From: Anolis carolinensis
Lineage: Eukaryota
Assembly (NCBI RefSeq): GCF_035594765.1
Contig: NC_085843.1
Location: 254,177,971-254,241,970, forward strand
Direction of reading: 5' to 3'
Length of the DNA: 64,000 nt
Positions 1,698 to 46,795 of the stretch are shown here, one piece after another. Each line of letters starts with the position of its first letter. Within the stretch, counting starts at the first letter, position 1. Position numbers and translations under genes: made by a program. The notes beneath the pieces are model-generated. The model was not told the origin of the DNA. It did no database searches and saw only the letters and a program-made list of their open reading frames with translations.

Positions 1698-1749
<52 letters not shown>
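1698..1749. repeat. (TTA)n microsatellite, tail/target of R4 elements
   Basis: Pure TTA run; further runs at 1969-2017 and 2444-2496. Confidence 0.95.
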
Positions 1750-1968
1750 GACACAACGACATTGTATGACACAGCAAACAAGATAGATATGCTGGATTTT
1801 GTATCACAAAATCACAAGTCGAACACTTCCCAAGTGTTTAGGACTGTGTGATGTATTTTCGGATGATGCGCAAAGATCCAGTAAGGTGGCCTTTTGCAGT
1901 TGGCAGATCGTAATTTTGTCAATGTCTATTGTTTCCAAATGCCGGCTGAGATCTTTGGCACGGCACCC
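1750..1968 (-). mobile_element. R4/Dong-clade LINE 3' end, copy 1
   Basis: KDLSRHLETIDIDKITICQLQKATLL plus 3' UTR, with (TAA)n on both sides. Confidence 0.85.
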
Positions 1969-2017
<49 letters not shown>

Positions 2018-2442
2018 GACACAATGATGTTGTATGACACAGCAAACAAGATAGACATGCTGGATTTCGTTTCACAAAACCACAAGTCGAACACTTCCCA
2101 AGTGTCTAGGACTGTGTGATGTATTTTCGGATGATGTGTGCAGATCCCAGCAGGGTGGCCTTTTGCAGTTGGCAGATCGTAATTTTGTCAATGTCTATTG
2201 TTTCCAAATGCCGGCTGAGATCTTTTGGCACGGCACCCAATGTGCCCATCACCACCGGGACCACCTGCACTGGTTTCTGCCAGAGTCTTTGAAGTTCAAT
2301 CTTGAGGTCCTGATAGCGGCTGAGTTTTTCCTGTTGTTTTTCATCAATGCGACTGTCACCTGGGATGGCGACATCAATTATCCAAACCTTGTTCTTTTCC
2401 ACAACTGTGATATCTGGTGTGTTGTGTTCCAGAACTTTGTCA

Positions 2443-2443
<1 letters not shown>
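2018..2443 (-). mobile_element. R4/Dong-clade LINE 3' end, copy 2 (restriction-like endonuclease domain)
   Basis: HNTPDITVVEKNKVWIIDVAIPGD...EKLSRYQDLKIELQRLW...ITQS*, a PD..D-type REL endonuclease. Flanked by (TAA)n. Confidence 0.9.
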
Positions 2444-2496
<53 letters not shown>

Positions 2497-3085
2497 TGAT
2501 ACACAACATGATTGGTACACAACAAACAAGATCACTATTCTGGCTTCTGTATTGGATCACACATTGGACACTTCCCAAGTGTCTAGAACTATGTGATGTA
2601 TTGGCAAATAATGTGTGCAGATCTGAGTAGGGTGGCCTTTTGCAGCTGACAGATAGTGATTTTGTCAGAGCCGATTGTTTTTAAGTTCTGGCCAAGGCCT
2701 TTAGGCACTGCACTTAGTGTACCGATCACCACTAGGACCACCTTCACTGGCTTGTGCCAGAGTCTTTGCAGTTTGATCTTTAAATCCTTGTATCATGAAA
2801 GGTTTTCCAGTTGGTTCTCGTCAATTTTTCTGTCACCTGGGATTGCAACATCGACAATCCATACTTTTTTTTTTAACACGATCATGAGGTCAGGAGTATT
2901 GTGCTCCAAAATTCTGTCAGTCTGAATTCAGAAATCCTAGAGTAGTTTTATGTGTTCATTTTCTGTAACCTTTTCATGCTTGTGATCCCACCGGTTCTTT
3001 GTTACAGGCAGATAGTGTTTGTGATACATGTTCCAGTGGATCACCTGAACAACAGTATTATGCCTATACTTGTAGTCTGTCTATG
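2497..3085 (-). mobile_element. R4/Dong-clade LINE 3' end, copy 3 (different, more decayed subfamily)
   Basis: Minus translation DYKYRHNTVVQVIHW...ILEHNTPDLMIV carries RHN and PD motifs, with stop codons. Confidence 0.85.
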
Positions 3086-7271: not shown

Positions 7272-9059
7272 CATTAATGGCCTAGTTGGATGAACTGATG
7301 AAAACAACATTCAATGACTGTTAGGTACCACTATAACGGTTATGTGATAAAATTGTGGAACAATTGTGTTACAACAATTCAGCCATCACAATAAATTGTT
7401 TGGCAAGATATTTCTCTGAGCACAAGCTTTGACCAGGTATTTGCGATCAATACCAGAATCATGTTCACAACTCCTCCATGCAACTTATATTCGTGGTTAC
7501 CCACAAAATATTTTTTGCAGCAATCTCATTAGGGAAAGGTATGCTGTTAGACACTGTAATATTCGAATTTTTTTTTGGTTGACACATTGCAGATTGCACA
7601 GAGATTTACCAGTATATTCTGATTTATCTTCTGATCACCCCCTACTCTAAAAAGTCAGCTTCAACTTTGTTCTGCTATTCAAGTATAACAATGCTATGTT
7701 TTCAGTGGCAATTTCAGCTAAGCTTCACCTCCTATTTTCCAGTTGCTTCTAATACCCAAAGTTGCCAAGCCATTTGTTCTTTTAAAAGAGAAAGTCCAAA
7801 AGTTGGAGCATAGCTCCCACTAAATTGGGATGAGGACCATACTTCCTCAAATAAGAATTCTGCTTTCCAATGACATTTTCATTTAATCCTCAAGTTGCCA
7901 TAACTAAAAGCTTTTAAGCATTTTAGAAATATAGTTTATCTCAAGAAAAGGAACAAGAAACGTGACCAAAGAAACACAAAGACAAGCAAATAGAAGAACT
8001 CTTGCTGTGAATGATTTTCAGTGTCTCATTCTTTGCAATGTTAGAAATGTGGAAACTGAAGGAGAAATGAAACAGACGAAAAGTGGTGGGTAGGGGCAAT
8101 GCTCTCCTTTTGCTCCCCTCCTGGTAGCTACATCTATGCTAAAAGCAGTGTTTCTTGTATTGCATCCATTCCACTGATGGCAAAATAATTTGGTTCAGCT
8201 AAGCACAGGCATGCTTAACCTGCATTGGGATTCTACAGCATAGCTATCCCAGCAGTAAGGCTGGTAAGTCTCTGTGGGGGTGAAACAAACCTGCAAGCCA
8301 TGTTCTAGCAGCTTCCTAACTAGTCACTTCCTCCCCAAATGCTAAGGTGACCAGATCACTGATTTCATATCTGCTGTAGAAACCAGTCCTGTACAGTTCT
8401 TATGTAGAAACAGAACATACAAGCCCACTTTTCCTAAGGAAAATAACAATGCAGCTGGTTATTACCGGGAGAATATTATCCATATCATTTAGAAGCCTTA
8501 TACAAACTTACACTCAAAATAGCTACCTAGTGGAAATTGGATATATTCCTTCAGACATAATAAATGTAGCAATAAATCAGAGTAATGGCCTATAGGTATA
8601 ACCCACAGAGCTCTCTGAATTGCAGTAAAAGCCACACCATAACACTCTGAGCATCAGCTGCTGGCTCAGAACTGAAGACATAAGCCACCCCAAGGAAGGT
8701 GAAACCTTTATAGCATAATTGTTGTCGACTGCAGCAACTTTCTCCTCATGGTAAAATTGCGTGCAGCACAGGTAAAAACTTGAATTTAGGTTATTAAAAA
8801 ATACTGAAATCACTGCTATTGCCTGTAGTAAAGGGTGGATAGAGACCACTCAATTTGGACTACAACTTTGGACTACAATACCTAGAGTCCTGTAAACAGT
8901 ACCAAATAGCCTTCTAGTGCTGCTTGGGGAGAGTTATGCTTTGGGCAGCAACTCCCTGTGTCCCAAACCAGCCTGGTCCATTGAAAAGATAACTTTTCCA
9001 AACTGTAACACTAAGTTCTTGGACATGAATTTAGGATTATGATTATGAACAAGGATTAT

Positions 9060-9284
9060 GGAGGAATGCATTTATGCACTTTATATGTTTTTAATCTGTT
9101 TGGTTTATATGTTTTATCTGCAAAACTGTTTTAATTGTTTTTAATTGATGAGATGTGTTTTATTACTATGATTTAAGCGGCATTGAATCTTGCTGGAATT
9201 GTAAGCTACCTTGAGTTCCCTACGGGGTGAGAAAGGTGGGGTATAAATGAAGTAAATAAATGAATAAATAAATAAATAAATAAA
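9060..9284 (+). mobile_element. L2 LINE 3' UTR/tail with (TAAA)n
   Basis: gtaagctaccttgagttccctacggggtgagaaaggtggggtataaat-(TAAA)n is the same tail type as 53950-54022. Confidence 0.75.
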
Positions 9285-9971
9285 TGATGCCTTGTCTCCT
9301 CATTCCTAAAGAGAGTGGGCTATTGGTACATATTTTGCTGACTCAAACAAAACTCTCAGTTGTAGGCATTTGCATTTGTTGTACAGCCAAGAATACACAC
9401 TGAAAGCTCACTAAAATCTCCAGACTTCAGTCTCTGCTCCTGAGTTTTAGGGCCTGGCCTTGCTTCTCTCTTCCTCAGGACAAAGGGCTACAAATGGTTC
9501 CAAGCTCATTACATTCAATGGAATAAAATTGTTGCTTTTTCTCTCCTAGCTAAAACTTCAAAGCTCCTTAGAATAACAAAATGATATGGAAGATGCTACA
9601 GATATTAAATTGAATTCCTGCAAGTAACAGGAACAATTGTCTTAATATACCAGTAATGTCCTTTGTTATATTTTAAGTATTTCCATCTGTTTGACTGTAT
9701 GTAATACGATAACTTGCAAATTAACCTGGAGTCATCGAAATATGCTTATTCATAACACTATTGCATATTTCAAGTTCTGGTCCAATCCATCCTTATATAT
9801 TGGTGAGGCAGCCATTAGAAGTCTGAAAATTCATTTGGAATGGTAATTTTCATTGTTGATTGTTTGAGTGATGAAATTTCTATTCCATTTCTCAGTCCAC
9901 ATTTCAAACAATTCATCTACTGATGTCTCAAGACAGGCAGCCAAATATTTACAGTGATCAAAATAAATATA

Positions 9972-10175
9972 TAATATGACCCCCCCCCCCCTTATCCATG
10001 GATGATACATTCCAAGACCTCCTGTGGATAGTGAACCCTAATGTTTTTACAATACTTGGGCCAAAAGCATACTATAGAATCCCATTGGAGGCCCACAAAC
10101 ACCAGGGATGATATTTTTGCAGTGTGGTAAGTGAAACTGTGGATAATCAAATTTATGGATCAAGGGGTCATTTTG
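9972..10175. mobile_element. Old Tc1/mariner (Tigger-like) MITE
   Basis: TA-flanked imperfect TIRs TAATATGACCCC...GGGGTCATTTTG and ATCCATGGAT subterminal motifs. Confidence 0.55.
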
Positions 10176-11099
10176 TATACATTCCAAACACCTAAAAGCA
10201 CATGAAGAAATCAAATAATATATCACAGAAAAATAGTATAAAGGAGAAATAATGAATCCGTACAGTTAGAAATGGTGAAGACTACAAATAACTCAGCCTT
10301 CTCAAGCAAAAACCTCCTGTAATCTGTGCTTTGCTGTTGTGCTCAAGACCTGTTGCTGACTGTCATTCTGTTCGGACTAAGTACTGGTAGCATCTATGAT
10401 CTTTGAGCATGTAATTTGCGGAACCTCTTCAGTTTCATTCTTGCTCCATCTCTTCTCCTTTAAAATAGTATAATAGCAAATCCATGTAAGCTGCCAAACC
10501 TTTCCACAGGAGCACACAATTTTGTCTGGCGAGCATTACATTAGCCCTTTCCAGTTGGTGTTCAAAAGCAATGCCTAACAGACACTCAGCACTTTCATTC
10601 TCTCGTTGTTTCTCTAGCAAAGGTAATGAGTTCTTTTGTTTTGAAATGGTTTGTGCTACAAATTATCTTCATCAGTAAGCATGAATAGGTAAACTAAGTC
10701 CTAAAATGAAAACCTTCCTGGAAATCATGTCCTCTGGCCAGGAAGTTCCTCCTCCAAAACCCCAATCCCCTGGAACAGAGAGCACTGAATCTTTTAAACT
10801 CTACTTATGTAGCACTTTGATTCCTCTTTAACTACCATGGTTTTACCCTATGCAATATTGGAATTTGCAGTTTAGCTCTCTCTCACAGAGAATTTGAAAT
10901 GAATGGTGCTCAGTCTTTGGGCCTCTAGATGTTTGAGATGTTAATTTCCAGAGGTCCCAGCTAGAATGGTCAGTGGTCAGAAATATTTCATTGGCATAAG
11001 AGAAGCGGGGAACTTCTAAAGGACACCATCATATCTTGAAGTGTCATCAGCAATCTATTTTCCCAATTTTCCAACTTCTTTTAAAACATCCCAGTTTTT

Positions 11100-11459
11100 G
11101 TGTTGTCGAAGGCTTTCATGGCCGGAATCACAGGGCTGTTGTGTGTTTTCCAGGCTGTATGGCCATGTTCCAGAAGTATTCTCTCCTGACATTTTGCCCA
11201 CATCTATGGCAGGCACCCTCAGAGTTGTGAGGTATATGACACTTAGTAAGTATTATGTGTCAAGACAGGCAGCCAAATATGTATAGTGATCAAAATAAAA
11301 ATATAGTATGACCCTCCATAGCCATGGATGATACTTTCCATATCCATGGATGATACGTTCCATATACCTCACAACCTCTGAGGATGCCTGCCATAGATGT
11401 GGGCGAAACGTCAGGAGAGAATACTTCTGGAACATGGCCATACAGCCCAGAAAACACAC
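11100..11459. mobile_element. Penelope-like element insertion: inverted arms (11100-11238 minus, 11361-11459 plus) around a captured spacer
   Basis: The arms are reverse complements of each other and match the PLE copy at about 37645-37780. A 15-bp direct repeat AACATCCCAGTTTTT lies at 11085-11099 and 11460-11474. Confidence 0.85.
11375..11415 (+). ncRNA. Minimal type I hammerhead ribozyme motif in Penelope pLTR
   Basis: CCT-CTGAGGA-T-GCCTGC(catagat)GTGGGC-GAAA-CG-TC-AGG: CUGANGA and GAAA core boxes, helix II, palindromic ACGU helix III, and a GUC cleavage triplet at 11410-11412. Confidence 0.75.
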
Positions 11460-11699
11460 AACATCCCAGTTTTTCTTTCCTCCACCCCCACTTTCCCCTT
11501 TTGTCCTTAGCGTATGTTAGTTGTTCCATAGTGAGTTCAAAATTCAAAACTAGTTTGCTCTCAATTAACTTTGCAATAGGGACAAAAGAAGATAAAAAAG
11601 AGGGTGTGGAATATTAACTTGTGTGATCTTCCGATTGAATCACTTTTGCCATCTTGACCACATTTTGCTATTGCTACACATATCCTAGTTTTCAACTGT

Positions 11700-12620
11700 G
11701 ATTAGAGCGCAGATGGTGGAAAACTTGGCTTTATGCAAAGGACACAGTATAGAGGGCACCTTTGCTCCTATAAGGTGGTAATAAGCGCAGCAAAGAAAGC
11801 TTTCTTTTCCACACGCATTGTGTTGGCAGATTCATGTCCAGCTGAGCTGTTCAGAGTGGTGAGAGGTGTAACTCAGGTACCCTCCTCTTTGAATCCATTA
11901 TTAGAACCTTCAGTACTCACTGTGATGCCTTTAACAACCATTTCACAAATAAAATCTCTCACACAAAAGCTGACTAATCATTAGAGCAGAGGCTAACAGT
12001 GTGGTTTTTAAAAATAATGTCAGAAGTGACTTGAGAACATACTACAAGTTGTTTCTGATGTGAGAGAATTGGCCATCTACAGAGACATTGCCCAGGGGAC
12101 GTTACCATCCTACTGAGAGGCTTCTCTCATGTCCCTGCAAGCTAGAGCTGACAGACAGGAGCTCACCCTATCTTGCGCATTTGAACCGGCAACCTTTAGG
12201 TCAGCAACCCAACCTTTAGGTCCATAGTCTAGCCGACACAAGGGTTTAACTCATTGTACCACTGCGGCTCCTAACAAAGTGGTGCTCAGCAACTCTGTGA
12301 GTGGGATTACACTGGATCAGTTTCAATTGGTGAGTATTATTGATATGGACAAGCTGCTGGGACAAGTAAGAAGGATGATCCTTGTCTCTCTTGGCTAGTT
12401 GTCCAGGGAGGCGATGTAATTCAATTTCAAATACAACAAATTATTAACACATCTCCCATGGAGGGGAATTTTCCATCCTATTTAGAAGAATCTGTAGTTA
12501 GACTGCTGATGAAAAAGCCCTCCCTGGATTCCCTGGACCTTTATAATTGCAAACCAGTCTCTAACCTTCATTTTTTGGGCTAAGTGATTGCAGTTGCCCT
12601 CCAAATTCAGGCTGTCTTAG
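11700..12620 (+). mobile_element. Decayed L2 ORF2 fragment split by a SINE
   Basis: AAKKAFFSTRI...PAELFRVVRG before the SINE; LLMKKPSLDSLDLYNCKPVSNLHFLG (start of RT) after it. Confidence 0.75.
12005..12271 (-). mobile_element. Anolis SINE2-like tRNA-derived SINE
   Basis: Minus head GGAGCCGCAGTGGTACAATGAGTTAAACC with B-box-like GGTTCAAATG and a Vingi-like TGACA/A-rich tail. Degenerate TSD ctaacagtgtggt / ctaacaaagtggt. Confidence 0.8.
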
Positions 12621-12732
12621 GTGACACACACTTATTTGATTTTTGGGCGGAATACTTTCAATCCAGTGGTTGAATCCACAGATATAGAATCTGTGTACAC
12701 AATGGGGCAATGGTACACTGCTACAAAGAGGG

Positions 12733-13032
12733 TATGTTACCATAAGGTAACATGTTATTTTCAAAAGTAGTATTAGTAGAAGCAATAGGTAACACCCATA
12801 GTTGTTACTTATTACTCTAAGAGGAGCACATAAATACCATCATATTTTTTATTGTTGCTTAATAATATCTTAAAATATTTACAAACAAAAAACATTATTT
12901 TAGACGTAAAAAGTAAATGTTATCTTTGATGTTTCTATTTTGGTTGTAACAAGTAAATATTACTTGTTACAACCAACATAGCAACATTAAAATTAATTAT
13001 GTCATTTCATAAAAATGATGTTACTATGCCCT
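12733..13032. mobile_element. Decayed DNA transposon with GTAAC/GTTAC subterminal repeats
   Basis: Imperfect inverted ends agggtatgttacc / tgttactatgccct and many GTAAC/GTTAC words. Confidence 0.35.
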
Positions 13033-13700
13033 TATTGTTGGGTGATGTGAAAGACAGTAAATGTAAACAGAATTTTCAAGAAGAATAGCCAGTACCCCAA
13101 TCTCGACAGAGTCTAGCAGAGTAATAAAATTATATGAAGTAAGTTTACTTATAAATACTAAATGCTTCATAGCATCTTGTGGTGAGAGGGTTCGTAAGTG
13201 TATTCTTCAAACATAGATGAGTGTGTGAGAGAGAATCTCACACTAACAAAATGGAAGATAAACCAATTTAGAATAATTAGAATAACTGAGGAAAGATAAG
13301 ATTGAATATGGCGGAGATCAAGAAACAGGAAATGACATTAATATATGGTTATGCCTAACTTCCATAGAGACAAAGAAGCTACCAGCTACTTACTATAGTC
13401 ATGCTAAGATTTCTACCTATACCTGCTGCTTGAAAAGCTGTATTGGAGGTAACACCATTCCTAGGAAGATCTAATTTACCAGTCCCTTTTGTTGATGGAT
13501 AAGCTGTGGGTGTTTCATTGTTGTGATCTTTCTAAACTAGTTTGCTATCTTCAAGTGGAGTGGAACGATAGACAGGTGACCCATGACCTGTCTACAGTTG
13601 TGAGATTTCACTAGGAATTTCTCTACCTGGAGTAATAGAATGGGTGCCAATAATCCTAATTCTCTGTCTTGGTTTTGTCTATGCCAGCATTGACAAGCAT

Positions 13701-14300
13701 TGTCATGGCCATCTTAGAAAGTGAGGATGAGGAATGGCTGGAAGGGTCAGTAGGGGAGATGAAAATCAGCAATTCCCAGCAGTCTTCCCAGCTTAGTTCA
13801 GTCACTGCTGAGGATGAGCATTCAGCAGTGATGGACACTCCCAAGCAGTCTGAACAAGCAAAGGAAATGAAGCAGAATCAGTCAGTAATGAGTTAAACAG
13901 ATCTCCATCTTTAGAATGCAGAAGGCAACATGCAGAGTCTTTCAGGTCTGCAAGATTAGCAGAGAAATGAGGTCTCAACAAGCAACAGTTGAGATTTTAG
14001 GATTAAGGGGCTCAATCTAAAGGCTTTCTGTGGCAATTAATATTATTCTCTGACTGAACCCAGATTCTTCTACTCCCATATGCTTGGCTATTTGGACCTT
14101 GGTTTATCCCAGGCCTGCTCCTGTAATTCTCCAACTTTGACTCCAGTAATTGAACTGAGACTATAGCTTTGGAATATCATAATCAGTTATTGTTTGGACT
14201 TTGTGCTTTGAGTTAGGAATGTTGACCTTGGCTTTGTTGCACAAACTTCCGGTGTTTATCTTGTGAACTGTGCCTGTGATAGTGCAGCACAATCATGATA
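13701..14300. mobile_element. Solo LTR (Gypsy-like), 600 bp
   Basis: Termini TGTCATG...CATGATA with a 5-bp TSD AGCAT/AGAAT. Confidence 0.7.
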
Positions 14301-16893: not shown

Positions 16894-17431
16894 CAGTGGT
16901 GGCGCAACGGGTTAAACCGCTGAGTTGCTGAACTTGCTGACAGAAGCTTGGTGGTTCGAATTCATGGGACAGGGTGAGCGCCCGCTGTTAGCCCCAGCTT
17001 TTGCCATCCTAGCAGTTTGAAAATTTGCAAAGGTGAGTAGATAAATAAATACCGCCTCAGTGGGAAAGTAAATGGTGCTTCATGCAGTAATGCCGACCAC
17101 ATGACCTAGGACAGTGGTTCTCAACCTGTGGGTCTTCAGGTGTTTTGGCCTACAATTCCCAGAAATCCCAGCCAGTTTACCAGCTGTTAGGATTTCTGGG
17201 AGTTGAAGGCAAAAACATCTGGCAACACACAGGTTGAGAACCACTGACCTAGGAGGTGTTTACGGACAACGTAGGCTCTTTGGCTTAGAAATGGAGACGA
17301 GCGTAACTCCTCAGAGCAGGAAGGAGAAACCTTTACCTTTACCTGTGTTTGCTGTTTCAAGGCATTGAAGCCTTGTGTCTGTGTTTGCTGGAATCTGCCC
17401 TGAGTCCCCTCGGGGAGATAGGGCAGAATAA

Positions 17432-30532: not shown

Positions 30533-30543
30533 TTCCTCTAGAG

Positions 30544-30678
30544 CAGTGGTTCTCAACCTGTGAGTCCCCAGATGTTTTGGCCAACAACTCCCAGAAATCC
30601 CAGCCTGTTTACCAGCTGTTAGGATTTCTGAGAGTTGAAGGCCAAAACCTCTGGGAACCCACAGGTTGAGAACCACTG
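30544..30678. mobile_element. hAT MITE (same family as 17112-17246)
   Basis: CAGTGGTTCTCAACCTG...CAGGTTGAGAACCACTG with a perfect TSD CTCTAGAG. Confidence 0.92.
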
Positions 30679-30861
30679 CTCTAGAGGAAACACAGGCTGA
30701 AATGCATTGAGCTTTTCTACTTTTCTACATTGGGTTGTTTACTTCTTCTGATGAAGAATTCATCAGTATTAATTCCTTAGCTATGATATGCAAATCCTTA
30801 ATTTCTCATCTGAGGCAAATAAGAATTATTTCAACACACCAGCATAAAAAAAAAAAAACCA

Positions 30862-35046: not shown

Positions 35047-37087
35047 TAAGCTGTTATATTACATGTGAAATGGGTCTTAACTTCTAGTCTGTTGAAATGA
35101 TAGAAGGATACAGTCTATATTAAACCATCTAATTTTTTTCTTGGCATGAAGAAGTGTGACCTAATTGTATCCCTGTGACTAAATAAATCTCTAGATAACA
35201 AATTATGTAGCTCATTCTGATAAGATTATCATTTACATTTTTGTTTCTTATGAATTAGTGTGTGTGTGTGGCTGTTTGCATGTGGGCACAGGGGAAATTG
35301 AATTATACCAGCAGTTATCCATCAAAAGCAGTCACTCCGCTCTAGCCACTGAAAAGAAAATAGCAGGCAACGAGAAAATGATCATATTTTAGTGTATAGT
35401 TTCTTAATTTAAAACTGCCATTTCTTAGGATTATTATTTTTGGGTTTCAACTTTGGGATTTATATGAGCTTTAAGGTGATCATTTCTTAAAGGGAACACA
35501 ACTAGTACTTCGATTCCCAAATCTTTCTGTTCTTTTCATATTAAGTGCCCTTATGCTGGCAACATTTCTATGGATATGCTTTACAATAATGGCAATGTCT
35601 TCAAACATTTCAGTCCCATACCTCATTTTAATTTCCTTTCCTTTCTGCTTCAGTGTGCAAGATTGCATGAAAATTTACATATTATTGTGTACATTTTTCT
35701 TACATGTAATTTTAAAATGCAAATTGGTCTATTATATAGTTATATAAGTGGTTTTCCTTAATATAACACAATATAATATACACGTTTCCCCTAGTATGTG
35801 CATTTTTATATGTACTTGCTCCTAATATCGACATTTTGGATGCATGATTTTTGTTTTTTTGTTTGGAGAACTGCTGTGAAATATTCTAACAAGAGCACTA
35901 CTAAAAATAACTAGGTCAAGCCTGCATTGATTTGGAGACTACAGACTGGTTCTTAATGAAGTGAGATCTGAACAAAAGTATCCCCCATTCTTCAGTCAGA
36001 ATCAGGTTCAGAAGCTTTCCCTTCTTTTAAACCATTTTTTCCTTGAACTATCCCATGGTAACAGTTATCACCTCACCCTATATGCAGTGCTTTTGCTTCC
36101 CCTGTTTTAGAAACGTGCCAAGATAATCTTCTAAAATGTTTATTTCCTTTATTTTCTATCCCACTTTTCTCTTGATATAGCTGTAGAAAGAGATTTGTTA
36201 GAAGACACGATCATGGACCTCCTGTATAATGTCTCATTTGGACCACTTATTGTGAAACTTGATGACTCCATCATAGAACGCACAGTGAAAGAAGGTAAAA
36301 ATTTGCTCCCGCAGAAAAGATTTCAAATTAGGTGTGTCTTCAGCCACTCTCTGTGATTGTGATAAGCTATTTTAGTATTGTGGCACTACCATGTATCAGA
36401 AACCACATGAGACAATCCAGGGAAGCCCAATTGCCTGGTAAGACTTTTAGACAATGGCAATCTAAAATATGGCAGGAGACATGCCCCATGCAGGTCTGAA
36501 TACCGATGATGGAAATCTCAACCAGAATATAAAGTAGAGAAATGAACAAATCCACCCTCTATTTCAGATCGCCAAGCAAGAGGGAAATATCAATTGACAA
36601 GAGACGATTGTGTGCTTTTTGATGTTCAGAACTATTCTCTGAGTGGAGTCCACAATAAGTTTGTCTTTTTGTCTTTAAGGTTCCCAAATACTTACACTTA
36701 TTGGAATATTTTTAAACTGTAGAGTCTAGAAGACAAATTATTCTTTCAGTTCATGTTTGTAATACAAGTCTGCTTGCTTGCTCCCTCCTCCCTCCCTCTG
36801 CTACTGCGACATTATAGGTAATTTTATTCATACTGTCACTACAGTCTCTGGACAGAAGGGTTAACAGTGTTAGGAAGAAATGATTTATGTGTTCCATAAT
36901 GGGGCCACATCTCAATGAGAGATCCCCTGTTTTACATGTGTTTTGTCTTTCTTTTTGGTGTTCTGTTTTTAGTTGCTGTAGCAGCGGACAGAGCTCCAGA
37001 GAGCTCCTGGCCTTCACTCAGCACTTTTCCTGATATAAGCAAAGAGGCCCAAGTGACAGAAAGGGGAAAGGAGGGGCCTTTCAAAGT

Positions 37088-37302
37088 ACTGTCAGCCCTC
37101 CATATCCATGGATTCTGTATCCATGGATTTAGCTATCCACTGCTTGAAAATATTTTTAAACATCCCAAAAGCAAAACATGATTTTGATATTTTATATAGG
37201 GACACCATTTTGCAATGGCGTTGTAGATAATGCGACTTGGGCATCCACAGATTTTGGTATCCATGGGGTGGTGACGGTACTGGGACAAAACCCTGCTGAT
37301 AC
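37088..37302. mobile_element. Tigger/MER2-like DNA transposon remnant truncated by Penelope
   Basis: ta-ctgtcagccctccatatccatggattctgtatccatggat is a typical end sequence. Confidence 0.55.
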
Positions 37303-37780
37303 CAGCTTCAAAGTCTGTCTGCTTCCGCCTGGGGGAATCCTTTGTTGGGACTGTGTTAACTGGCCCTGATTGTTTCCTGTCTGGAATTCCCCTGTTTTCT
37401 GAGTGTTGTTCTTTATTTACTGTCCTGATTTATAGAGTTTTTTTAAAAAATACTGGTAGTGTTTTTAATCCCAAAAAGGATTTCCCCATGCAGGAAGCAG
37501 CCAGACTTTGAAGCTGCAAGGCCTTTTAATGCTAATCAAGGTGGCCAATTGCACCATTCACACTTGTCTCAAATAGATAAGAGTTTGTTCTCCTGCTTTG
37601 TACCTTCCACAGAAATATAAGCCCCATTTGTCTAGTTTCCAACAGACCTCACTACCTCTGAAGATGTCTGCCATAGATGTAGGCGAAATGTTAGGAGAGA
37701 ATGCTTCTGGAACATGGCCATACAGCCCAGAAAACTCACAGCAACCCAGTGATTCCGGCCATGAAAGCCTTTGACAACAC
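37303..37780. mobile_element. Penelope-like element with inverted 5' segment; degenerate hammerhead at 37655-37695
   Basis: cagcttcaaagtctg (37303) is inverted relative to cagactttgaagctg (37502). The plus arm carries CCT-CTGAAGA...GAAATGTT-AGG and ends GACAACACA. Confidence 0.85.
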
Positions 37781-44083: not shown

Positions 44084-44200
44084 ATACAAATAATTGGGCT
44101 ACACTTCAGTTGTTCAATTGAACAGGTCATAGACAACATTTTCAGCATGTTTTTTTAAATGGATAAACTTTATACTATTTTTTTGTCTTTTAAAGTAATA

Positions 44201-44523
44201 CAGTAGAGTCTCACTTATCCAACACTCGCTTATCCAACATTCTGGATTATCCAACGTATTTTTGTAGTCAATGTTTTCAATACATCGTGATATTTTGGTG
44301 CTAAATTAGTAAATATAGTAATTACTACATAGCATTACTGCGTATTGAACTATATTTTCTGTCAAATTTGTTGTAAAACATGATGTTTTGGTGCTTAATT
44401 TGTAAAATCATAACCTAATTTGATGTTTAATAGGCTTTTCCTTAATCTCTCCTTATTATCCAACATATTCGCTTATCCAATGTTCTTCCGGCCCATTTAC
44501 GTTGGATAAGTGAGACTCTACTG
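44201..44523. mobile_element. Tc1/mariner MITE, 323 bp
   Basis: TIR CAGTAGAGTCTCACTTATCCAAC with TA TSD. Confidence 0.92.
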
Positions 44524-44640
44524 TACATGCACTTTAAGCTATAGGTTTTGCAGTATTTAATGTTACAAGTCAAGGATCTGATCATATTTCAAGAAAGCCT
44601 ACTTCTGTGTACTTTATTGTGTACTCCAAACAAGACCTAC

Positions 44641-46661: not shown

Positions 46662-46795
46662 CAGGCATGGGCAAACTTCAGCCCTCCAGGTGTTTTGGAC
46701 TTCAACTCCCACAATTCGTAACAGCCAGTAGGCTGTTAGGAATTGTGGGAGCTGAAGTCCAAAACACCCGGAGGGCCAAAGTTTGCCCATGCCTG
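46662..46795. mobile_element. hAT MITE
   Basis: TIR CAGGCATGGGCAAACTT with TSD TACTGTAA/TACTATAG. Confidence 0.88.

What the first reader, a model, noticed from the sequence alone, without database searches (positions are those of the whole stretch)
11085..11474. Penelope insertion whose inverted arms enclose a templated copy of DNA from 1.3 kb upstream
Seen: a 15-bp TSD (AACATCCCAGTTTTT) brackets a minus PLE arm (11100-11238), a spacer and a plus PLE arm (11361-11459). Spacer 11255-11362 copies 9923-10014, i.e. apparently unique flank (atgtctcaagacaggcagccaaatat...) plus the start of a Tigger-like MITE. It contains a 22-bp stutter (catagccatggatgatactttc / catatccatggatgatacgttc) that runs through CATAT into the arm start catatacctc. 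The right arm stops where the PLE continuation (caacccagtg in the 37.7 kb copy) resembles the target (catcccagtt). Known: inverted arrangements are typical of Penelope-like elements. Inference: a single event used microhomology-guided template switches from element RNA to neighbouring chromosomal DNA (or its transcript) and back. That would be local sequence capture by a PLE, leaving a long RNA hairpin.
Basis: partly seen in the sequence, partly recalled or inferred. Interest (0 to 1): 0.75.

Follow-up and report, generated by a model that had tools for sequence, protein, structure and literature searches.

The report
Penelope insertion patched with nearby DNA
A fragment of a Penelope-type jumping gene sits here as two mirror-image arms with a roughly 90-base copy of DNA from about 1.1 kb away between them, likely copied in by error-prone end-joining repair while the insertion was being closed, a kind of scar already described for other retrotransposons.

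Summary
The structure is real. An exact 15-bp target duplication frames two head-to-head arms of a Poseidon_Ac-like Penelope element. Between them lies a diverged copy of 9923-10014 (77 of 92 columns match), with a 22-bp stutter. The donor was 1.07-1.16 kb from the target, not 1.3 kb. The inverted layout and the shorter right arm are ordinary: the left arm ends at the published reverse-transcription start (+117) and the right arm one 'tail' (37-41 nt) earlier. The middle is the informative part. The donor's end is the best or tied-best microhomology partner for the right arm's 5' end among 20,004 positions within 5 kb, and the left join is a short fold-back of the donor's start. Likely path: two target-primed cDNAs; the right one invaded the donor, slipped once, folded back and joined the left one, as in synthesis-dependent microhomology-mediated end joining. 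One continuous RNA-to-DNA-to-RNA switch cannot give inverted arms. Templated insertions are known for L1 and R2, host capture for rotifer Penelope, and this scan noted the same layout in two other genomes. Empty site, reads and genome-wide frequency are untested.

The parts
11085..11099 (+). Left copy of target-site duplication (15 bp; first 4 bases also fit the element)
11100..11238 (-). Left Penelope/Poseidon arm, -23 to +117 relative to the ORF ATG; 11100-11140 is the 'tail'; hammerhead core motifs mutated
   Evidence: by-eye comparison with the PAc RNA printed in PMC11167929
11237..11262 (.). Fold-back at the left join: 11237-11248 pairs with 11251-11262 (10 of 12, 2-nt loop); includes the 16-nt filler 11239-11254
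11255..11301 (+). Copy of the flank 9923-9969 (43 of 47)
11302..11362 (+). Copy of the start of a Tigger-like MITE (family label recalled, not from a call), with a 22-bp stutter (units 11318-11339 and 11340-11361)
11359..11362 (+). 4-nt word shared by the donor's end and the element's 5' side; five more bases match after a bulge
11361..11459 (+). Right Penelope/Poseidon arm, -23 (-25 with the shared word) to +76/+80, without tail; ATG at 11384; hammerhead core motifs intact at 11378-11412
11460..11474 (+). Right copy of target-site duplication
9923..10014 (+). Donor of the captured piece: flank plus start of a MITE that runs to about 10179
37303..37780 (.). Second, independent head-to-head Poseidon-type insertion used as comparison; arms overlap by about 48 nt, no captured local DNA seen

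Best explanation
This is one Penelope (Poseidon-type) insertion with two inverted arms inside a target-site duplication, whose central gap was likely closed by copying DNA from 1.1 kb away during end-joining repair. Shown: the TSD, the two arms, their end points, the donor match, the stutter, the fold-back and the rank of the right-hand microhomology. Inferred path: (1) the element's protein nicked both target strands and primed a cDNA on each, one from the tail end (+117) and one from about +76/+80; (2) both cDNAs stopped at nearly the same place (-23 and -25), leaving two 3' ends with the same sequence, which cannot anneal to each other; (3) the right-arm cDNA end paired with the top strand of the donor through 4 exact plus 5 further bases and was extended leftwards; (4) after 22 nt it slipped back to the same short word and copied again; (5) it was released at 9923, folded back on itself for about 12 nt, and so gained a 2-3-nt match to the left cDNA end, which was joined. 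A non-processive repair polymerase such as polymerase theta is the most likely copier; the element's own RT is not excluded.
For: PAc nicks and extends both strands and starts RT at two sites that bound the 30-40-nt tail, one at +111-118 (PMC11167929); here the left arm ends at +117 and the tail is 37-41 nt. Right-arm 5' 12-mer against all positions within 5 kb on both strands: 2 of 20,004 score as well as the donor end (one of the two is the donor end itself) and none better; 1 of 8,004 within 2 kb. The stricter 11-mer gives 5 of 20,006, with 1 better. That these bases are element-derived follows from P0001 and the printed PAc RNA (by eye). The left cDNA end has no match to the donor boundary (3 of 11), which fits entry from the right. 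Fold-back score reached by 43 of 5,000 random window 30-mers and 34 of 5,000 shuffles; 7 and 10 of 200 dinucleotide shuffles fold as well. Loop-out and snap-back synthesis give direct and inverted repeats at repair joins (PMC5728401; PMC13596132). Total divergence of arms (5 of 98) and spacer/donor (8-9 of 86) is not significantly different (Fisher p 0.26-0.39).
Against: Leaving out CpG changes, the arms differ at 1 of 92 sites and spacer/donor at 7-8 of 85 (Fisher p 0.015-0.029), so the capture looks somewhat older than the arms; gene conversion between the arms or error-prone copying would have to explain that. The fold-back test was chosen after seeing the sequence. The same filler also resembles decayed element sequence (287 of 5,000 random 20-mers score as well). 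Extending the microhomology query to 16 nt removes the signal (1,116 of 19,996), so the match is short. L1 templated insertions mostly draw on DNA within 15 bp of the site (10.1101/2024.08.27.596794), far closer than 1.1 kb. No empty site, reads or second allele were seen. One locus cannot name the polymerase.
Confidence: 0.55

Rival explanations
1. Two steps: the element first inserted as a near-perfect palindrome; the hairpin-prone centre broke later and was repaired with the templated insertion, independent of retrotransposition.
For: Both arms end within 2 nt of each other at the centre, as a symmetric centre break would give. Palindromes at the inverted junction are common in Penelope elements (PMC3846280). 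All repair signatures fit equally well.
Against: A later capture should be less diverged than the arms; it is equally or more diverged. This leaves only a break soon after insertion, or later homogenisation of the arms.
Confidence: 0.22
2. The element's own reverse transcriptase made the capture by jumping onto neighbouring DNA or onto a transcript of it.
For: Host DNA between Penelope terminal repeats with TSDs, and template jumps, are proposed in PMC3846280. R2 cDNA 3' ends prime further synthesis on cDNA or nearby DNA (PMC11371274). L1 ORF2p can extend on DNA templates (PMC11702581).
Against: No host exon found among 67 of 1,296 open frames scanned or, so no transcript is in evidence. Slip plus fold-back plus 2-3-nt join is the pattern described for synthesis-dependent end joining. 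The sequence cannot exclude RT as the copier.
Confidence: 0.15
3. The spacer comes from a dispersed flank-plus-MITE composite elsewhere in the genome and the nearby copy is only a paralogue.
For: Non-CpG divergence from the local copy is higher than between the arms. No whole-genome search was possible.
Against: Only two copies of the flank part in 64 kb. For any copy number, the chance of one copy within 1.2 kb and no other in the window is at most 1.4%, assuming a 2-Gb genome (size recalled). At two columns the spacer agrees with another MITE of the window and the donor differs, as expected if the donor kept mutating (weak, different family).
Confidence: 0.05
4. Assembly artefact.
For: Inverted Penelope repeats are known to trouble assemblies (PMC8557442). 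No reads were laid on the locus.
Against: The repeated pieces differ by 5-10%, and 4 of the 5 arm substitutions are CpG transitions (read from the alignment); an assembler would duplicate identical sequence. The TSD and both canonical end points would be hard to fake.
Confidence: 0.03

Closest known systems
Canonical endonuclease-bearing Penelope/Poseidon insertion (PAc of Anolis carolinensis, PMC11167929; Pen2a_Av, PMC3846280; summary in PMC8557442)
   Same: Head-to-head terminal repeats, 5' truncation, TSD, 30-40-nt tail on one end only, hammerhead motif over the ORF start.
   Different: The inverted junction is not a short overlap or an element-derived palindrome; it holds 108 nt copied from the neighbourhood plus a fold-back made of that host DNA.
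L1 templated insertions (22 among 3,611 solo L1 insertions, 10.1101/2024.08.27.596794; three cases in PMC11702581)
   Same: A short genomic segment (<250 bp) duplicated into a retrotransposon insertion during integration.
   Different: Different element class; donor 1.1 kb away rather than typically within 15 bp; it bridges two overlapping inverted cDNAs rather than a cDNA and the target.
Host DNA captured between Penelope pLTRs in Adineta vaga (PMC3846280)
   Same: Non-element DNA between Penelope terminal repeats, framed by a TSD.
   Different: There the spacers are 0.9-1.5 kb or whole genes, mostly between direct repeats, moved to new places and read as mobilisation in trans; here the donor is adjacent, short, between inverted arms, with repair-type joins.
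Synthesis-dependent microhomology-mediated end joining / polymerase theta templated insertions (PMC5728401, PMC13596132); R2 snap-back 5' junctions (PMC11371274)
   Same: Microhomology-primed, interrupted synthesis leaving direct and inverted repeats at the join.
   Different: The studied cases use templates next to the break; polymerase dependence is not testable here.

Membership tests
Penelope-like element, Poseidon_Ac-related | Sequence similarity to the pLTR/ORF-start region of PAc | tested here: met
   By-eye comparison with the RNA printed in PMC11167929: about 6 differences in +1 to +76 of the right arm; 7 of 11 candidate proteins hit, 6 labelled Anolis carolinensis gene models, all carrying the same peptide.
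Penelope-like element, Poseidon_Ac-related | Inverted 5'-truncated terminal repeat with a 30-40-nt tail on one end | tested here: met
   Tail 37-41 nt on the left arm only; left end at +117.
Penelope-like element, Poseidon_Ac-related | Hammerhead ribozyme core in the pLTR | tested here: met
   Both core motifs present in the right arm, both mutated in the left (motif recalled, position agrees with PMC11167929). Rfam gave no hammerhead hit at E<=5. Cleavage not tested.
Penelope-like element, Poseidon_Ac-related | ORF with telomerase-like RT and GIY-YIG endonuclease | tested here: inconclusive
   The insertion holds only the first 39 codons; no full-length ORF was retrieved (the job never returned).
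Retrotransposition-coupled templated insertion | Non-element segment inside the TSD that duplicates nearby genomic DNA | tested here: met
Retrotransposition-coupled templated insertion | Capture happened in the same event as the insertion | tested here: inconclusive
   Overall divergence compatible (p 0.26-0.39), non-CpG divergence mildly discordant (p 0.015-0.029); empty site and alleles not seen.
SD-MMEJ / polymerase theta scar | Microhomology and direct or inverted primer repeats at the joins | tested here: met
   Right join rank 2 of 20,004; 22-bp direct repeat; fold-back 10 of 12, 43 of 5,000 controls.
SD-MMEJ / polymerase theta scar | Dependence on polymerase theta | not testable with these tools
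   Needs a retrotransposition assay in POLQ-deficient cells.
Tigger-like (TcMar) MITE for the donor repeat | Terminal inverted repeats flanked by TA, match to a family consensus | tested here: inconclusive
   Decayed inverted termini ending in TA at about 9970 and 10179; no repeat library on hand; family name recalled.

The most novel reading that the evidence does not exclude
Penelope's two-strand priming routinely leaves two identical, non-complementary cDNA ends (possibly run-offs at the pLTR transcription start, 25-30 nt below its TATA-like motif) that can only be closed by alternative end joining. Penelope elements would then be habitual duplicators of DNA from within a few kb, with the donor chosen by microhomology to the cDNA end, and the inverted junctions in lizard genomes would be a large natural record of the unresolved last step of Penelope integration.
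Probability: 0.3. Interest if true: 0.65.

Novelty: new variant of a known kind. Interest (0 to 1): 0.4.

Why it matters
How Penelope elements finish integration and form their inverted ends is stated to be unresolved (PMC11167929, PMC8557442). This locus records an order of events for that step and gives a sharp genome-wide prediction: spacers between inverted arms should map within a few kb, at sites with microhomology to an arm's 5' end. As a single old locus with no known function it is a scar, not a system; the same general outcome is known for L1 and R2.

Tried and rejected
Whole-genome search: no genome held. No reads were laid on the locus (one search gave no data), so misassembly, polymorphism and the empty site are open. 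One search listed 19 runs holding part of 9000-13000 (14 with half the words or more, all organism A); shares for other organisms were small and unlaid, so they are not used as evidence. Exact-pattern scans for other copies of the arm found 0 in metagenome contigs, viral contigs and prokaryote genomes. Rfam at E<=5 on 9800-11600: 3 chance-level hits. Host gene: 67 of 1,296 open frames scanned against Pfam gave one sub-threshold hit; one search found 0 of 30 candidates; one search found no candidate; never returned. Rejected: hammerhead cleavage as the arms' 5' end (arms reach about 50 nt beyond the +26 cut site). Rejected: homology-guided entry from the left arm (3 of 11). Rejected: a single RNA-DNA-RNA path (gives a direct repeat). 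The 390-nt RNA hairpin folds at -220.8 kcal/mol, z -23, but that follows trivially from the inverted arms and says nothing about transcription. Filler as an inverted copy of donor 9912-9930: 11 of 19 columns, not convincing. PAc supplements: file 2 gave only figure labels, file 3 a run list, the GenBank consensus could not be read and file 1 was not opened, so the exact position of the second RT start was not seen.

Full report
Observation. The window shows an exact 15-bp direct repeat at 11085-11099 and 11460-11474; an exact match of that length within 5 nt of both ends has a chance of about 2e-7. Inside lie a minus arm (11100-11238) and a plus arm (11361-11459) that agree at 93 of 99 columns. 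The spacer 11255-11340 aligns to 9923-10014 at 77 of 92 columns, E 4e-24 within the window, and its non-MITE part has no third copy in the 64 kb. A 22-bp unit is repeated 2.3 times at 11315-11365.

What the arms are. The right arm reads in frame as the N-terminal peptide that several Anolis carolinensis gene models have absorbed (7 hits among 11 candidates, 6 labelled with that species). By eye it matches the Poseidon_Ac (PAc) RNA printed in the methods of PMC11167929 with about 6 differences in +1 to +76. The host is therefore probably an Anolis lizard (inference). That paper shows that PAc nicks and extends both target strands, and starts reverse transcription at two sites that bound the 30-40-nt tail, the main one at +111-118. 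Here the left arm ends at +117 and the right arm at +76 to +80, so the tail is 37-41 nt. The position of the second start was in figures that I could not see; the fit rests on tail length. Inverted 5'-truncated arms, a one-sided tail and a TSD are the standard layout (PMC3846280; PMC8557442). So the short right arm needs no special explanation, although the target does match the element's continuation at 9 of 11 bases and may have helped priming. The hammerhead core is intact in the right arm and mutated in the left; both arms extend about 50 nt 5' of the published cut site (+26), so cleavage did not set their ends.

The right join. P0001 and the PAc RNA show that bases 11359-11370 belong to the element. 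I scored that 12-mer against every position on both strands within 5 kb: 2 of 20,004 reach the score of the donor's end, the donor's end being one of them, and none exceed it; within 2 kb it is 1 of 8,004. With an 11-mer the figures are 5 of 20,006 with 1 better; with a 16-mer the signal is lost (1,116 of 19,996), so the homology is short. The match is 4 exact bases shared by both sides and 5 more after a bulge. This is the strongest evidence that the donor was picked by the element's cDNA end.

The left join. The left arm's end matches the DNA before the donor's start at only 3 of 11 bases. A 16-nt filler (11239-11254) intervenes. Bases 11237-11248 pair with 11251-11262 at 10 of 12 positions around a 2-nt loop. 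The score is reached by 43 of 5,000 random window 30-mers and 34 of 5,000 shuffles; folding as DNA gives z about -2.2. This test was chosen after seeing the sequence. A rival origin, decayed element sequence with a 3-nt gap, scores at the 287 of 5,000 level, so the filler's origin is likely but not certainly a fold-back.

Age. The arms differ at 5 of 98 sites, spacer and donor at 8-9 of 86 depending on which stutter unit is used; p 0.26-0.39. Four of the five arm differences are CpG transitions (read from the alignment). Without CpG sites the counts are 1 of 92 against 7-8 of 85, p 0.015-0.029. A joint fit gives about 3% per lineage, under which the arms are under-diverged (P 0.03-0.04) and the TSD's perfect match is unremarkable (P about 0.4). 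The capture is thus not younger than the arms. The excess could come from conversion between the arms, error-prone copying, or a different donor; at two columns the spacer agrees with another MITE of the window and the donor does not, which points weakly to continued change in the donor.

Mechanism. Shown: the anatomy above. Inferred: two cDNAs primed on opposite target strands both stopped at about -24, leaving two 3' ends of the same sequence. The right one paired with the donor's top strand, was extended 22 nt, slipped back to the same short word, copied on to 9923, was released, folded back and gained a 2-3-nt match to the left end. Interrupted synthesis from direct and inverted primer repeats is what synthesis-dependent microhomology-mediated end joining describes (PMC5728401; PMC13596132), so a polymerase-theta-type repair is my choice (0.55). 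The main rival is a break at the centre of an already inserted palindrome, repaired the same way (0.22); then copying by the element's own RT, on DNA or a transcript (0.15). No host exon was found (67 of 1,296 frames scanned), so neither a transcript template nor an RNA hairpin has support; the strong fold only restates the inverted repeat.

Comparison with what is known. L1: 22 templated insertions among 3,611 solo insertions, mostly under 250 bp and within 15 bp of the site (10.1101/2024.08.27.596794; its supplement was closed, so the tail of that distance distribution was not seen); three more with nearby genomic templates in PMC11702581. R2: cDNA ends prime on cDNA or nearby DNA before joining (PMC11371274). 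Penelope: host DNA between terminal repeats with TSDs, and palindromes at inverted junctions, in Adineta vaga (PMC3846280). In my searches of the open library I saw no report of a local templated insertion between inverted Penelope arms; none of the 14 papers listed held both 'Penelope' and 'templated insertion'. Subscription papers were not searched. This scan's own notes describe the same layout in two other genomes (e1-9889359, 137 bp from about 400 bp away; e1-9989557, 1.7 kb from 3 kb away) and a related inversion (e1-7941254); these are unchecked leads. The only other inverted Penelope in this window (37303-37780) shows no captured local DNA, so 1 of 2 here.

What I read. PMC11167929: parts 1-3 of 4 of the main text, the supplement list, files 2 and 3. 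PMC11702581: passages and section 7. Passages only: PMC3846280, 10.1101/2024.08.27.596794, PMC5728401, PMC11371274, PMC13596132, PMC8557442. Recalled, not from a call: the Tigger label, the hammerhead and TATA motifs, the 2-Gb genome size, gene conversion between inverted arms.

Left open. No whole genome was held, no reads were laid, and no other copies of the element were found in the collections on hand. Uniqueness of the flank, the empty site, polymorphism and the genome-wide frequency of such captures are untested.

Verdict. A real, well-resolved scar: an ordinary Penelope insertion whose centre was likely closed by a local templated insertion. New variant of a known kind. Interest 0.4; 0.65 if a genome-wide survey shows this to be Penelope's habitual way of closing its inverted junction (probability 0.3).

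Noticed in passing
window 37303-37780: Second head-to-head Poseidon-type insertion of another subfamily: minus arm about 37303-37455, plus arm 37470-37780 with full tail, arms overlapping by about 48 nt. No TSD found at the ends; it sits at the end of a MITE (about 37087-37302) whose right remainder seems missing, so possibly a target deletion.
   Followed up: partly
window 11238 and 11359-11361: Both arms share their 5' end within 2 nt (-23 and -25), 25-30 nt below the TATA-like motif seen in the printed PAc RNA; chance about 1-5% under uniform truncation. Could mark the RNA's 5' end.
   Followed up: partly
window 11378-11412: The right arm keeps an intact hammerhead core and an open frame for the first 26 codons of the Poseidon ORF; six Anolis carolinensis gene models have wrongly absorbed or exonised this same peptide.
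   Followed up: no
window 44193-44525 and 59478-59811: 334-bp pair, 94% identical, not identified.
   Followed up: no
window 1698-2921: Tandem 270-480-bp repeats with trinucleotide runs; one frame looks like the 3' end of a LINE ORF (recalled resemblance; no Pfam hit).
   Followed up: no
window 12920-12996: 37-bp inverted arms, 86% complementary, only 3 nt apart.
   Followed up: no
window 17106-17252, 30538-30684, 46686-46785: Palindromic short repeat family, MITE-like.
   Followed up: no
window 62593-63187: Tandem array with a 279-285-bp unit and strong strand skew.
   Followed up: no
window 13660-13893 (+): Acidic, exon-like open frame of 78 codons; no homologue among 30 candidates, one sub-threshold Pfam hit.
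   Followed up: partly
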